Origin: Escherichia coli
Lineage (GTDB): Bacteria; Pseudomonadota; Gammaproteobacteria; Enterobacterales; Enterobacteriaceae
Length of the DNA stretch: 64,000 nt
Direction: 5' to 3' (one strand)
NCBI RefSeq assembly: GCF_003334405.1
Contig: NZ_QOWM01000003.1
The notes beneath the pieces were generated by a model, which saw nothing but the letters and a program-made list of their open reading frames with translations, ran no database searches and was not told the DNA's origin. Shown here in pieces: positions 50,193 to 53,269 of this stretch (positions are counted from its first letter, which is position 1; each line of letters starts with the position of its first letter). The position numbers and the translations under genes were made by a program.

Positions 50193-51185
50193 ATGCAGAG
50201 CGATAAAGTGCTCAATTTGCCGGCAGGCTACTTTGGTATTGTGTTGGGGACGATAGGGATGGGATTTGCCTGGCGCTATGCCAGCCAGGTTTGGCAGGTC
50301 AGCCACTGGTTAGGGGATGGGCTGGTGATTCTGGCGATGATCATCTGGGGATTATTGACTAGCGCATTTATTGCCCGACTCATACGCTTTCCGCATAGCG
50401 TGCTGGCGGAAGTTCGCCATCCAGTGCTGAGCAGTTTTGTGAGTTTGTTTCCGGCAACGACGATGCTGGTGGCGATTGGTTTTGTTCCGTGGTTTCGCCC
50501 ACTGGCGGTGTGCCTGTTCAGTTTTGGTGTCGTGGTTCAGTTGGCTTATGCCGCCTGGCAAACTGCGGGATTATGGCGCGGATCTCACCCTGAAGAAGCT
50601 ACCACGCCTGGACTGTATCTGCCGACAGTTGCCAACAACTTTATCAGCGCAATGGCCTGTGGTGCGTTGGGCTACACCGACGCCGGTCTGGTGTTTTTAG
50701 GCGCAGGCGTTTTCTCATGGCTAAGCCTTGAACCGGTGATCTTGCAGCGTCTGCGCAGTTCGGGAGAATTACCCACGGCACTGCGGACATCACTCGGCAT
50801 TCAGCTCGCTCCTGCGCTGGTGGCTTGTAGTGCCTGGCTGAGCGTCAACGGCGGCGAGGGTGACACGCTGGCGAAAATGCTTTTCGGTTATGGACTGCTG
50901 CAACTGCTGTTTATGCTACGTCTGATGCCATGGTATCTCTCCCAGCCATTTAATGCTTCATTCTGGAGTTTCTCGTTCGGCGTATCTGCACTGGCAACCA
51001 CCGGTTTGCATCTGGGGAGTGGCAGCGATAATGGATTTTTCCATACGCTGGCGGTGCCGCTGTTTATCTTTACCAATTTTATTATTGCAATACTGCTCAT
51101 CCGTACTTTTGCGCTTCTGATGCAGGGAAAATTGTTAGTCAGAACCGAGCGCGCCGTTTTAATGAAAGCAGAGGACAAAGAATGA
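50193..51185 (+). CDS. tehA: tellurite resistance / C4-dicarboxylate transporter family membrane protein
   Basis: 330-aa form from ATG 50193 ([19 protein letters not shown]...); about 10 TM helices. Confidence 0.9.
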
Positions 51186-51775
51186 TCATTCGTGACGAAA
51201 ACTATTTTACTGATAAATATGAATTAACCCGCACACACTCTGAAGTACTGGAAGCGGTGAAAGTGGTTAAACCGGGTAAAACGCTGGATCTGGGCTGTGG
51301 CAATGGTCGTAACAGTCTTTACCTGGCAGCCAATGGTTATGATGTTGACGCATGGGATAAAAATGCCATGAGTATCGCCAACGTCGAGCGCATTAAATCC
51401 ATTGAAAATCTGGATAATTTACACACCCGAGTCGTTGATCTGAATAACCTCACATTTGATAGACAGTACGATTTTATTCTTTCGACTGTGGTGCTGATGT
51501 TCCTTGAGGCTAAAACCATCCCCGGGTTGATTGCCAATATGCAACGTTGCACTAAACCTGGTGGTTACAACCTGATTGTGGCGGCGATGGATACCGCTGA
51601 TTATCCATGTACCGTCGGCTTCCCGTTTGCCTTCAAAGAGGGAGAATTACGTCGATATTACGAAGGCTGGGAGAGGGTGAAATACAATGAAGACGTCGGC
51701 GAGCTGCACCGCACCGACGCCAACGGTAATCGTATTAAACTGCGTTTCGCCACGATGCTGGCACGTAAAAAATGA
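51182..51775 (+). CDS. tehB: tellurite SAM-dependent methyltransferase
   Basis: 197 aa; ATGA overlap with tehA; methyltransferase motif [12 protein letters not shown]. Confidence 0.9.
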
Positions 51776-52076
51776 CCCGGTAAGCACAAAACGCGTGAAA
51801 ATTCCCCACGCTGAGATGATTTACTGTTCTTCTTTTCGGTAAGCATATTTTTTATCGAAGGGATGTGAAATTAATCACAGTAGTCGAAGTTTTTAGCAGC
51901 TTAACTTACTGAAATTTAAGTACTGATGATTGACTTAGCCCCTTTTTCGGCATTGACTATGTCGTCTGAAAAGGGGCTGAAAAATTTATTTTCACCAACA
52001 CTTTTTTTGCCACAACACGAAGCGGCGCTTTTTGCTATAACTTAGAAAGTAATATAATCATCTCAGGAAACTATTC

Positions 52077-52745
52077 ATGCGTACCACATCATTTGCGAAA
52101 GTTGCAGCTTTATGCGGCTTATTGGCTCTGTCTGGTTGTGCCTCTAAAATCACCCAGCCAGATAAATATTCTGGTTTTTTAAACAATTACTCTGATTTAA
52201 AAGAAACAACCTCGGCTACAGGTAAACCTGTTTTACGTTGGGTAGACCCGAGTTTTGATCAAAGCAAATATGACAGCATCGTCTGGAACCCAATCACTTA
52301 TTATCCGGTACCGAAACCGTCGACCCAGGTAGGGCAGAAAGTTCTGGATAAAATTTTGAACTATACCAACACCGAAATGAAAGAAGCGATAGCGCAGCGT
52401 AAACCACTGGTTACCACCGCTGGGCCGCGTAGTCTGATTTTCCGTGGGGCCATTACCGGTGTAGATACCAGCAAAGAAGGGCTGCAATTCTATGAAGTGG
52501 TTCCTGTTGCATTAGTGGTTGCGGGGACGCAAATGGCTACAGGCCACCGTACCATGGATACTCGCCTCTATTTTGAAGGTGAGCTGATTGATGCAGCGAC
52601 TAATAAACCGGTTATCAAAGTCGTTCGTCAGGGCGAAGGTAAAGACCTGAATAACGAAAGTACGCCAATGGCTTTCGAAAATATTAAACAAGTTATTGAT
52701 GACATGGCGACCGATGCCACCATGTTTGACGTTAACAAAAAGTAG
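52077..52745 (+). CDS. ydcL: lipoprotein (DUF3313)
   Basis: 222 aa; lipobox LALSGC in MRTTSFAKVAALCGLLALSGCASK. Confidence 0.85.
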   Translation: MRTTSFAKVAALCGLLALSGCASKITQPDKYSGFLNNYSDLKETTSATGKPVLRWVDPSFDQSKYDSIVWNPITYYPVPKPSTQVGQKVLDKILNYTNTEMKEAIAQRKPLVTTAGPRSLIFRGAITGVDTSKEGLQFYEVVPVALVVAGTQMATGHRTMDTRLYFEGELIDAATNKPVIKVVRQGEGKDLNNESTPMAFENIKQVIDDMATDATMFDVNKK

Positions 52746-52753
52746 TTCCAGAC

Positions 52754-52778
52754 GCGCCATCGTTAGATGGCGCTTTTT
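52754..52778 (+). terminator. terminator of ydcL, overlapping the tnpA stop; possible IS left-end hairpin
   Basis: GCGCCATC-gtta-GATGGCGC followed by TTTTT. Confidence 0.55.
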
Positions 52779-53269
52779 ATCCGGTGCGCCGTAAAACCCC
52801 ATCCTTCAGGGCGGGGATATAAGGCGCGGTTTTCCACCTGACCAGGTGTTTGCTGTTGTTCAATGTATTGGCGGATGACGGATATTGGCGCACCTCCGCA
52901 GCTACTGGCAAAATAGCCAGGACTCCACAAAACGCCTTTGTAGTAATACCTGAATGCAATATCTGGTCGATCTCGTCGCAGTCACCTACCCGATACGCCT
53001 TTGAGGCTGTTTACCAGACTGGATATCGCCAGTTTGGGAGGATAGTTAATTAACAAATGGACGTGATCTGGTTCGCCATCCATTTCAACCAGTTCAGCTT
53101 CAAAATCAGCACATACATTTGAAAAGTAAGTGCGTAGTTTTTCTGTCGCGTCATGGTCAAAAATCTGGCGTCGGTATCTGGTGACAAAGAGCAGGTGAAC
53201 ATGCATCAGGAAAACACAATGCCTTCCACGCCGGATATCGGTTTCTTTTTTCACAGACCAAAGTATCAT
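52763..53269 (-). pseudogene. insP: IS200/IS605-family Y1 transposase TnpA interrupted by a single in-frame TGA
   Basis: N-terminal 95 aa (HVHLLFVTRYRRQIF, HUH motif PDHVHLL) then TGA at 52982-52984, then same-frame continuation LRRDRPDIAFRYYYKGVLWSPGYFASSCGGAPISVIRQYIEQQ... to TAA 52763-52765. Confidence 0.75.

What the first reader, a model, noticed from the sequence alone, without database searches (positions are those of the whole stretch)
51936..51977. Long-loop inverted repeat in the tehB-ydcL intergenic region
AGCCCCTTTT ... AAAAGGGGCT forms a 10-bp stem with a 22-nt loop, about 160 nt after tehB and 100 nt before ydcL, followed by a T-rich stretch. It could be a distal terminator, a protein-binding site or the 3' end of an unannotated small RNA.
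Basis: seen in the sequence. Interest (0 to 1): 0.25.

Follow-up and report, generated by a model that had tools for sequence, protein, structure and literature searches.

The report
Stem-loop ending the tehAB messenger RNA
The inverted repeat is real and folds into a long RNA hairpin. It marks a published RNA 3' end downstream of the E. coli tehAB tellurite-resistance genes, so it is an ordinary, unannotated transcript-end hairpin without a U-tail, and its DNA also appears to hold a start site for the next gene, ydcL.

Summary
The window is E. coli K-12 MG1655 (MG1655 coordinate = window + 1,450,380). The 10-bp perfect inverted repeat exists at 51937-51946 / 51969-51978, one base off the stated coordinates. 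The 22-nt "loop" pairs further: the + strand RNA forms a 19-bp hairpin (51935-51980, 3-nt bulge, 5-nt loop, -25.4 kcal/mol, z = -5.9).

Published RNAtag-seq analysis (TRS, PMC10687069) lists a + strand RNA 3' end at window 51981-51985, directly after the stem. It is the only terminus listed between ydcH and the end of ydcL. No U-tract follows the stem (GAAAAAUUUAUUUU). It therefore fits the U-poor protective 3' stem-loops of Rho-dependent transcripts (Dar & Sorek 2018) better than a canonical intrinsic terminator.

The element is single-copy, present in about 99% of E. coli genomes and in all six other Escherichia species representatives recovered (six GTDB species clusters, two of them labelled E. 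coli), and absent by sequence from other genera. Where the other genera have a hairpin at the equivalent position, it is a different one and is often a canonical terminator. Escherichia also retains a 12-codon relic of a dppA-like gene just upstream.

SMRT-Cappable-seq (PMC6131387) places a ydcL start site at 51967, inside the hairpin. The loop sequence is invariant across Escherichia.

Verdict: an ordinary feature, a new member of a known kind, of low interest.

The parts
51935..51980 (+). Full RNA hairpin: 13 bp, 3-nt bulge (51965-51967) and 6 bp, with a 5-nt apical loop (UGACU, 51954-51958)
   Evidence: RNAfold gives -25.4 kcal/mol, z = -5.94. The same hairpin appears in the fold of the whole intergenic region. 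In 10 Escherichia sequences, 91% of pair cells are paired.
51937..51946 (.). 5' arm of the perfect 10-bp inverted repeat (AGCCCCTTTT)
51969..51978 (.). 3' arm of the perfect 10-bp inverted repeat (AAAAGGGGCT)
51981..51985 (+). Published steady-state RNA 3' terminus. Peak MG1655 1502359-1502368; dominant positions 1502361, 1502363 and 1502365.
   Evidence: TRS analysis of RNAtag-seq, PMC10687069 Supplementary Data 2 and 3. In the LB sheet the three replicates have adjusted p of 1.5e-14 to 4.5e-28. The label '5' UTR ydcL' comes only from a rule that assigns anything within 100 nt upstream of a start codon.
51182..51775 (+). tehB, the last gene of the tehAB operon, whose transcript most likely ends at the hairpin after a 3' UTR of about 205 nt
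   Evidence: Annotation. SMRT-Cappable-seq lists the operon b1429|b1430 from start site 1500535 without ydcL. The TRS rows show no other terminus between ydcH and the hairpin.
51967..51967 (+). Published distal ydcL transcription start site (MG1655 1502347), at the junction of the bulge and the 3' arm
   Evidence: SMRT-Cappable-seq Supplementary Data, operons b1431 and b1431|b1432, in NC_000913.3 coordinates. It comes from a single dataset and is not in the Kim 2012 table.
51929..51935 (+). First ATTGACT repeat, a possible -35 (TTGACT) of the distal ydcL promoter; invariant in Escherichia
   Evidence: Invariant columns in alignment A1. The promoter role is inferred from the start site at 51967.
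51953..51960 (+). Second ATTGACT repeat plus AT (ATTGACTAT), spanning the apical loop. GACTAT at 51955-51960 is a possible -10, ending 7 nt before the start site at 51967.
   Evidence: The loop columns are invariant in all 10 Escherichia sequences, which is unusual for a plain terminator loop. The promoter role is inferred.
51976..52035 (+). Region just downstream of the hairpin with mild C-over-G excess (C 15, G 9), a possible Rho loading region
   Evidence: Base counts. Dar & Sorek report a mild C>G enrichment downstream of such stem-loops. This evidence is weak.
51835..51870 (+). Relic of the last 12 codons of a dppA-like substrate-binding-protein gene (FGKHIFYRRDVK against FGKHIFYQVDIK). 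It shows that about 3 kb was lost between tehB and ydcL in Escherichia.
   Evidence: blastn hits to Klebsiella and Cedecea loci, sequences, tblastn E = 1.6e-4, family assignment, alignment A2.
52036..52048 (+). Proximal ydcL promoter: -10 TATAAC (52036-52041, within the conserved TTTGCTATAAC) and the start site at 52048
   Evidence: Start site in Kim 2012 (29-nt 5' UTR) and in SMRT-Cappable-seq (1502428). TTTGCTAT is invariant and the following A/T-A-A/T-C/T nearly so across 15 Enterobacteriaceae. An RpoS-holoenzyme SELEX peak lies in this spacer.
52077..52745 (+). ydcL (DUF3313 lipoprotein), the downstream gene

Best explanation
The inverted repeat encodes a + strand RNA stem-loop that defines and protects the 3' end of the tehAB mRNA, about 205 nt after the tehB stop codon.

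Proposed mechanism. Transcription from the tehA promoter runs through the untranslated spacer and the hairpin folds in the nascent RNA. Because no U-tract follows the stem, RNA polymerase most likely does not terminate efficiently there by the intrinsic mechanism. It is instead released a little further downstream, by Rho or by weak intrinsic termination. Alternatively, the read-through RNA is cut in the AU-rich single strand after the stem. 3'-to-5' exonucleases (PNPase, RNase II) then trim back to the base of the stem, leaving the stable ends observed at 51981-51985.

The same DNA also appears to carry the core of a distal ydcL promoter (start site 51967). Transcripts from that start contain only the 3' arm and cannot form the hairpin.

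In evolutionary terms, the hairpin occupies the slot where related genera have the canonical terminator of a dppA-like gene that Escherichia has lost.

Shown directly or in published data: the structure, the 3' end, the start sites, the conservation and the gene relic. Inferred: which transcript ends here, Rho and exonuclease involvement, and the assignment of promoter elements.
For: - The hairpin is real and unusually stable for its composition.
- A + strand RNA 3' terminus lies at MG1655 1502359-1502368 (window 51979-51988; dominant 51981, 51983, 51985). It appears in three TRS sheets, and no other terminus on either strand is listed between ydcH and the hairpin.
- SMRT-Cappable-seq defines tehA-tehB as an operon that does not include ydcL. 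Its ydcL transcripts start at 51967 and 52048, both downstream of the 5' arm.
- The tail after the stem is GAAAAAUU, with no U-tract.
- The feature matches the class of Dar & Sorek 2018: a steady-state 3' end immediately after a stable stem-loop that lacks a U-rich tail, with mild C>G downstream. The counts here are C 15 / G 9 in 51976-52035.
- The + strand fold is stronger than the - strand fold in most Escherichia sequences. There are 24 G-U cells on the + reading against 10 on the - reading.
- The stem is kept in all Escherichia species (91% of cells paired, 2 pairs with double changes). It refolds at -26.7 kcal/mol in Escherichia sp. MOD1-EC7003 despite four substitutions in the arms.
- In that species a 127-bp deletion (window 51778-51904) brings the stem to about 35 nt after the tehB stop, yet the hairpin is retained.
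- Other genera have a different hairpin after tehB, or after the dppA-like gene, at the equivalent position. Many of these are canonical GC stems followed by a T-run.
Against: - No experiment links the 3' end to tehAB transcripts specifically. The assignment is by elimination.
- The Adams 2021 Term-seq tables held here list no tehB or ydcL end, although those tables are cut and limited to stronger ends.
- Rho dependence and exonuclease trimming are untested for this site. There is no strong C-rich, G-poor rut-like region.
- The core of the stem is invariant in sequence, so covariation support is weak. In 14 of 500 shuffles the covariation score is reached, and the sequences are closely related. 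Conservation could equally reflect the overlapping promoter.
- The alignment of the hairpin to other genera's terminators is positional, between shared anchors. It is not sequence homology.
Confidence: 0.6

Rival explanations
1. It is a genuine factor-independent intrinsic terminator of tehAB. RNA polymerase would release the transcript a few nucleotides after the stem, despite the atypical A-then-U tail.
For: - The stem is stable and has a GC-rich base.
- The 3' ends lie within 7-9 nt of the GGGGC core.
- TTTATTTT begins 7 nt after the stem base, 51987-51994.
- Related genera have canonical intrinsic terminators at the equivalent position.
- Dar & Sorek discuss intermediate terminators that are weak intrinsic and also Rho-dependent.
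Against: - The first 8 nt after the stem hold only 2 U (GAAAAAUU).
- The mapped ends lie in the A-run rather than in a U-tract.
- The consensus scan does not call it a terminator.
Confidence: 0.15
2. The conserved feature is mainly a DNA element: the core of the distal ydcL promoter, or an operator flanking it. On this view the RNA hairpin and the 3' end are by-products.
For: - A start site lies at 51967 inside the element.
- The apical loop and both ATTGACT repeats are invariant across Escherichia, whereas plain terminator loops usually drift.
- The arms are centred 32 bp apart, about three helical turns, and flank the putative -10 (sequence).
- The core stem is invariant, so it cannot distinguish DNA from RNA constraint.
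Against: - A clear RNA 3' end sits exactly at the stem base.
- Substitutions in the arms are mostly G-U-compatible on the + strand, or compensatory.
- The distal start site rests on one dataset and is absent from the Kim 2012 table.
- The inferred promoter is poor: TTGACT, a 19-nt spacer, then GACTAT.
- No regulator is known to bind 10-bp arms 22 bp apart.
Confidence: 0.12
3. The hairpin is the 3' end of an independent small RNA made from a promoter inside the tehB-ydcL spacer, for example one driven by the perfect CRP-like site at 51864-51879.
For: - A perfect TGTGA-N6-TCACA palindrome lies 55 nt upstream of the hairpin and is kept in most Escherichia species.
- SMRT-Cappable-seq size selection would miss RNAs shorter than 1 kb.
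Against: - No start site between tehB and the hairpin appears in the datasets consulted.
- There is no convincing -10 at class I or class II spacing from the CRP-like site (sequence inspection).
- There is no U-tail of the kind typical of Hfq-dependent sRNAs, and no Rfam match.
- The hairpin is retained in Escherichia sp. MOD1-EC7003, where the CRP-like site and almost the whole spacer are deleted.
- The 39-codon ORF over the element loses its ATG in 3 of the 6 other species representatives.
Confidence: 0.08
4. It is a premature-termination (attenuator) element in a long ydcL 5' UTR, as the TRS table labels it.
For: The TRS annotation reads '5' UTR ydcL'.
Against: - The label comes only from the rule 'within 100 nt upstream of a start codon'.
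- Both published ydcL start sites (51967 and 52048) lie downstream of the 5' arm, so ydcL transcripts cannot form the hairpin.
Confidence: 0.03

Closest known systems
[quoted passage not shown]
   Same: A steady-state RNA 3' end lies immediately downstream of an energetically stable stem-loop. There is no U-rich tail and no upstream A-tract, and there is mild C-over-G content downstream.
   Different: Rho (bicyclomycin) dependence and PNPase/RNase II trimming have not been shown for this site. The stem is longer than usual (19 bp with a bulge), and its loop and 3' arm overlap a reported start site of the next gene.
Canonical Rho-independent (intrinsic) terminators
   Same: It is a GC-based stem-loop downstream of the last gene of an operon. 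It occupies the same position, relative to the ydcL promoter, as canonical terminators in Enterobacter, Klebsiella, Yokenella, Trabulsiella and Atlantibacter.
   Different: No U-tract adjoins the stem (GAAAAAUUUAUUUU). The U and A runs lie inside the stem (GCCCCUUUUU...AAAAGGGGC), and the mapped ends fall in an A-run.
REP/BIME and other dispersed intergenic hairpin repeats that stabilise upstream mRNA
   Same: It is an intergenic hairpin that could block 3' exonucleases.
   Different: It is single-copy in E. coli genomes, with a median of 1 place per genome. It has no REP consensus and no Rfam hit.
3'-UTR-derived or intergenic Hfq-dependent small RNAs
   Same: A discrete RNA 3' end lies at a hairpin in an intergenic region.
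   Different: There is no U-tail, no identified 5' end or own promoter, and no family match. Conservation is limited to Escherichia.

Membership tests
Intrinsic (Rho-independent) terminator | Stable GC-rich stem-loop with a short loop | tested here: met
   19 bp in total, a GCCCC/GGGGC core, a 5-nt apical loop, -25.4 kcal/mol.
Intrinsic (Rho-independent) terminator | U-rich tract of about 7-8 nt immediately 3' of the stem | tested here: not met
   The tail is GAAAAAUUUAUUUU, with 2 U in the first 8 nt. The consensus scan did not call it.
Intrinsic (Rho-independent) terminator | RNA 3' end within the U-tract | tested here: not met
   The published dominant ends at 51981, 51983 and 51985 fall in the A-run, or at its first U.
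Intrinsic (Rho-independent) terminator | Factor-independent release in vitro | not testable with these tools
   This needs in vitro transcription.
Protective 3' stem-loop of Rho-dependent transcripts (Dar & Sorek 2018) | Steady-state 3' end immediately downstream of a stable stem-loop | tested here: met
   The TRS terminus lies 1-5 nt after the stem base. This rests on published data, not a new experiment.
Protective 3' stem-loop of Rho-dependent transcripts (Dar & Sorek 2018) | Low uridine content after the stem and no A-tract before it | tested here: met
   The upstream flank is GAUGAUUGACUU and the downstream flank is GAAAAAUU.
Protective 3' stem-loop of Rho-dependent transcripts (Dar & Sorek 2018) | C-over-G enrichment (rut) just downstream | tested here: inconclusive
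   C 15 / G 9 in 51976-52035 and C 13 / G 9 in 51996-52055. The excess is mild and there is no statistical test.
Protective 3' stem-loop of Rho-dependent transcripts (Dar & Sorek 2018) | Read-through on Rho inhibition, and longer 3' ends in pnp or rnb mutants | not testable with these tools
   This needs bicyclomycin and exonuclease-mutant RNA-seq. The main text of PMC6061677 does not mention tehB or ydcL, and its supplementary tables could not be consulted.
Independent small RNA | Own promoter or defined 5' end upstream of the hairpin | tested here: inconclusive
   None appears in the Cappable-seq, SMRT-Cappable-seq or Kim 2012 tables held. Those tables are incomplete or size-selected.
Independent small RNA | Match to a described RNA family | tested here: not met
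   The best Rfam hits have E values of 0.2-5 and score far below their gathering thresholds.
Dispersed repeat (REP/BIME, ERIC, MITE) | Multiple copies per genome | tested here: not met
   Median 1 place per genome in 5,407 E. coli genomes, using sensitive blastn.
5'-UTR attenuator of ydcL | The hairpin lies inside a transcript that starts upstream and continues into ydcL | tested here: not met
   The published ydcL start sites at 51967 and 52048 are downstream of the 5' arm. The TRS label is rule-based.

The most novel reading that the evidence does not exclude
The hairpin is a dual-use module in which one 46-bp sequence acts as an RNA 3'-end stem-loop for tehAB and, as DNA, as the core promoter of ydcL (start site inside the stem, -10 in the loop). 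The end of the upstream transcript and initiation of the downstream gene would then be mechanistically coupled. For example, the terminator could insulate the promoter, or polymerase could be handed over to it. A variant of this reading is that the module yields a CRP-controlled small RNA.
Probability: 0.1. Interest if true: 0.45.

Novelty: new member of a known kind. Interest (0 to 1): 0.15.

Why it matters
This is mainly an annotation point. The tehAB operon of E. coli K-12 appears to have a 3' UTR of about 205 nt that ends at an unannotated stem-loop lacking a U-tail. A published table files this end under 'ydcL 5' UTR' purely by a distance rule.

The site is a clean example of terminator turnover. 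Related genera have canonical intrinsic terminators in the same slot, whereas Escherichia has a U-poor hairpin next to the relic of a deleted gene. This fits the idea that terminators switch between Rho-independent and Rho-dependent modes by changes in U content.

The overlap with a reported ydcL start site is a minor curiosity. It could matter to anyone who engineers or deletes this spacer.

None of this would surprise a specialist.

Tried and rejected
- Rfam search in E-value mode over 51500-52400: only chance-level hits.
- Dispersed-repeat or MITE idea: rejected, because the element is single-copy per genome.
- Small protein: the 39-codon ORF at 51926-52045 has no Shine-Dalgarno sequence, and its ATG is ACG, AAG or ATA in three of the six other Escherichia species representatives. 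Rejected.
- Sequence homologue outside Escherichia: blastn-short and an nhmmer profile against 80 tehB loci found the hairpin only in the six other Escherichia species representatives.
- ydcL 5'-UTR attenuator: rejected on start-site positions.
- A CRP-dependent promoter feeding the hairpin: inspection found no convincing -10 at class I or class II spacing on either strand. The hairpin also survives deletion of the CRP-like site in L003. Not supported.
- A marbox in the conserved TTTTTGCCACAAC box, prompted by lower ydcL expression in a rob mutant: matching by eye to the consensus AYnGCACnnWnnRYYAAAY failed.
- Term-seq tables of Adams 2021 and short-read Cappable-seq: no entry for this locus. 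Supplements for PMC9023263 and PMC11092163 are not held.
- Literature searches on tehB, ydcL, sRNA and terminator found nothing specific to this spacer.

Full report
**Identity of the region.** The window is identical to E. coli K-12 MG1655 around tehA-tehB-ydcL, and MG1655 coordinate = window + 1,450,380. tehB is at 51182-51775 (+) and ydcL at 52077-52745 (+). IS609 (insQ/TnpB) follows. RefSeq annotates nothing in the 301-bp spacer in MG1655 or in the other E. coli genomes listed.

**Observation.** The perfect 10-bp inverted repeat AGCCCCTTTT / AAAAGGGGCT is at 51937-51946 and 51969-51978, so the finding is one base off.
- The exact pattern never occurs in 100 shuffles of the window.
- Inverted repeats of this kind occur at about a dozen loci in the window (19 counts including offsets), against about 2 counts expected. 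The repeat is real, but it belongs to a common class.
- The 22-nt "loop" is not a loop. The + strand RNA folds into 13 bp, a 3-nt bulge and 6 bp with a 5-nt apical loop (51935-51980). The energy is -25.4 kcal/mol, z = -5.94.
- The - strand gives only -18.8 kcal/mol.
- The hairpin persists in the fold of the entire spacer.
- The stem is followed by GAAAAA and only then by TTTATTTT. No U-tract adjoins it, and the terminator scan does not call it.

**Transcript ends.**
- The TRS re-analysis of RNAtag-seq (Bar et al. 2023, PMC10687069) lists a + strand RNA 3' terminus at MG1655 1502359-1502368. The dominant positions are 1502361, 1502363 and 1502365, which are window 51981, 51983 and 51985.
- It appears in two sheets of Supplementary Data 2 and, judging by its position in the truncated stored file, in the LB RNAtag-seq sheet of Supplementary Data 3. 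There the three replicates have adjusted p values of 1.5e-14 to 4.5e-28. The table prints the same -25.4 kcal/mol fold.
- The rows are sorted by coordinate. In those sheets no other terminus on either strand lies between ydcH/opgD and this site.
- The label '5' UTR ydcL' comes only from the rule 'within 100 nt upstream of a start codon'.
- The Adams 2021 Term-seq tables held here have no entry for the locus.

**Transcript starts.**
- SMRT-Cappable-seq (Yan et al. 2018, PMC6131387, NC_000913.3 coordinates) defines tehA-tehB as an operon from start site 1500535 that does not include ydcL.
- It gives ydcL transcripts two start sites: 1502428 (window 52048) and 1502347 (window 51967).
- The first is confirmed by Kim et al. 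2012, with a 29-nt 5' UTR. It sits 7 nt after the TATAAC within the conserved TTTGCTATAAC.
- The second lies inside the hairpin, at the junction of the bulge and the 3' arm. It rests on that one dataset.
- Transcripts from either start lack the 5' arm and cannot form the hairpin. The RNA that ends at 51981-51985 must therefore begin upstream.
- With no other terminus after tehB, and no start site reported in the spacer, the tehAB mRNA is the most likely source. This is an inference by elimination.

**Comparative data: distribution.** The spacer is present in 5,394 of 5,426 complete E. coli genomes, and the 71-nt element has a median of one copy per genome. It is not a dispersed repeat. A scan of one genome per species with TehB returned 80 loci. 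By sequence, the hairpin is found only in the six other Escherichia species representatives recovered; two of these GTDB species clusters are labelled E. coli.

**Comparative data: structure within Escherichia.**
- In ten Escherichia sequences, 91% of pair cells are paired. Two pairs show changes on both sides, and several show G-U/A-U or G-U/G-C switches.
- The GCCCC/GGGGC-UUUU/AAAA core is invariant. Covariation support is therefore modest, with 14 of 500 shuffles reaching the score among closely related sequences.
- Escherichia sp. MOD1-EC7003 carries four arm substitutions, yet it refolds in a shifted register at -26.7 kcal/mol.
- The + strand reading pairs better than the - strand reading (91.0% against 83.6% of cells). 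It is also the more stable fold in most species.
- In MOD1-EC7003 a 127-bp deletion (window 51778-51904) brings the stem to about 35 nt after the tehB stop, and the hairpin is retained. This argues that the hairpin serves whatever reads out of tehB, not a promoter inside the spacer.

**Origin.**
- In Klebsiella, Raoultella, Enterobacter and Lelliottia, about 3 kb separates tehB from ydcL. It holds a pepT-like gene on the - strand and a dppA-like substrate-binding-protein gene on the + strand.
- Window 51835-51870 translates to FGKHIFYRRDVK. This matches the last 12 residues of that protein (FGKHIFYQVDIK; tblastn E = 1.6e-4), and the DNA aligns. Escherichia therefore lost these genes and kept a relic.
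- In the other genera the dppA-like gene is followed by a canonical GC stem plus T-run. This sits just upstream of the shared AATTTRT...TTTTTTGYCACAAC...TTTGCTATAAC ydcL promoter region.
- The Escherichia hairpin occupies that same slot between the same anchors.
- Genera in which tehB abuts ydcL also have a hairpin after tehB. It is canonical in Yokenella, Trabulsiella, Atlantibacter and Pseudocitrobacter, and U-poor in Citrobacter and Intestinirhabdus.
- A hairpin at this position is thus recurrent in the genera examined, while its sequence and U-tract are not conserved.

**Mechanism.**
- A stable stem-loop with a steady-state 3' end directly after it, no U-rich tail, no upstream A-tract and mild C>G downstream is the signature Dar & Sorek (2018) described for Rho-dependent transcripts.
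- In that study, termination was diffuse downstream and PNPase and RNase II trimmed back to the stem. The authors also proposed that terminators switch mode through changes in U content.
- Here C exceeds G just downstream (15 against 9 in 51976-52035), but only mildly.
- I therefore favour a 3'-end-defining, protective stem-loop of the tehAB mRNA. The release mechanism (Rho, weak intrinsic termination or endonucleolytic cleavage in GAAAAAUUUAUUUU) remains unresolved.
- From my own knowledge, the A/U-rich single strand after the stem also resembles RNase E target sequence. This was not tested.

**Overlap with a promoter.** The apical loop and both ATTGACT repeats (51929-51935 and 51953-51959) are invariant across Escherichia. 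That is unusual for a terminator loop. It fits a DNA-level constraint from the distal ydcL promoter, possibly TTGACT as -35 and GACTAT as -10, the latter ending 7 nt before the start site at 51967. This assignment is inferred, and the 19-nt spacer makes it weak.

**Rivals.**
- A canonical intrinsic terminator fails the U-tract test.
- An independent small RNA lacks a start site, a U-tail and an RNA-family match, and is hard to reconcile with the MOD1-EC7003 deletion.
- A ydcL attenuator is contradicted by the start sites.
- A purely DNA-level element cannot be excluded as an additional function, but it does not explain the RNA end or the G-U-tolerant substitutions.
- The 39-codon ORF over the element is not conserved.

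**Verdict.** The interpretation 'distal terminator / transcript 3' end' is essentially right once it is refined to a U-tract-less protective stem-loop. The feature is an ordinary, unannotated member of a known class, and interest is low.

Noticed in passing
window 51835-51870 (+): Relic of the last 12 codons (FGKHIFYRRDVK) of a dppA-like ABC substrate-binding-protein gene. In Klebsiella, Enterobacter and Raoultella this gene, together with a pepT-like gene, lies between tehB and ydcL. Escherichia has lost about 3 kb here.
   Followed up: yes
window 51864-51879: Perfect CRP-consensus palindrome TGTGA-N6-TCACA overlapping the relic's former stop region. It is kept in most Escherichia species (one half-site is altered in E69) and is removed by a deletion in Escherichia sp. 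MOD1-EC7003. No promoter at standard class I or class II spacing was evident; it would be at about -95.5 from the start site at 51967.
   Followed up: partly
window 52001-52048 (+): Promoter region conserved upstream of ydcL across about 15 Enterobacteriaceae genera. It comprises the box TTTTTTGCCACAAC (-47 to -34) and TTTGCTATAACTT, a sigma-S-like -10 with C at -13. The start site at 52048 is supported by two datasets, and an RpoS-holoenzyme SELEX peak lies in the spacer. ydcL expression is lower in a rob mutant, but the box did not match a marbox by eye.
   Followed up: partly
window 51811-51821 and 52056-52066: An 11-nt perfect inverted repeat (CTGAGATGATT / AATCATCTCAG) 234 nt apart. It joins the region just after tehB to the ydcL 5' UTR next to the Shine-Dalgarno sequence, and it forms the closing helix in the fold of the whole spacer. 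It is only partly conserved in other Escherichia, and the 5' partner is deleted in L003.
   Followed up: partly
window 51793-51811 (-): Terminator-like hairpin on the minus strand (GCGTGGGGAATTTTCACGC followed by GTTTTGTGCT) just downstream of tehB, with a promoter-like site on the same strand at 51869-51842. It is not conserved in other Escherichia species, and no minus-strand RNA end is listed there in the TRS tables.
   Followed up: partly
L086 (E. coli ET210) and L087 (E. coli CT01): IS1 insertions in the tehB-ydcL spacer. In ET210 two IS1 copies (one partial) are inserted within the 3' arm of the hairpin, with a duplicated CTGAAAAGGGG. In CT01 an IS1 replaces most of the spacer including the hairpin.
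   Followed up: no
L003 (Escherichia sp. MOD1-EC7003) against window 51778-51904: A 127-bp deletion removes the gene relic and the CRP-like site but keeps the hairpin, which then begins about 35 nt after the tehB stop.
   Followed up: yes
window 52757-52785 (+): Canonical intrinsic terminator of ydcL (GCGCCATC GTTA GATGGCGC followed by TTTTTATCC). TRS 3' termini lie at MG1655 1503154-1503164, just before the IS609 left end.
   Followed up: no
window 51926-52045 (+): A 39-codon ORF spanning the hairpin. It has no Shine-Dalgarno sequence, and its start codon is lost in Escherichia sp. E1V33, E. whittamii and E. albertii, so it is probably not a gene.
   Followed up: yes
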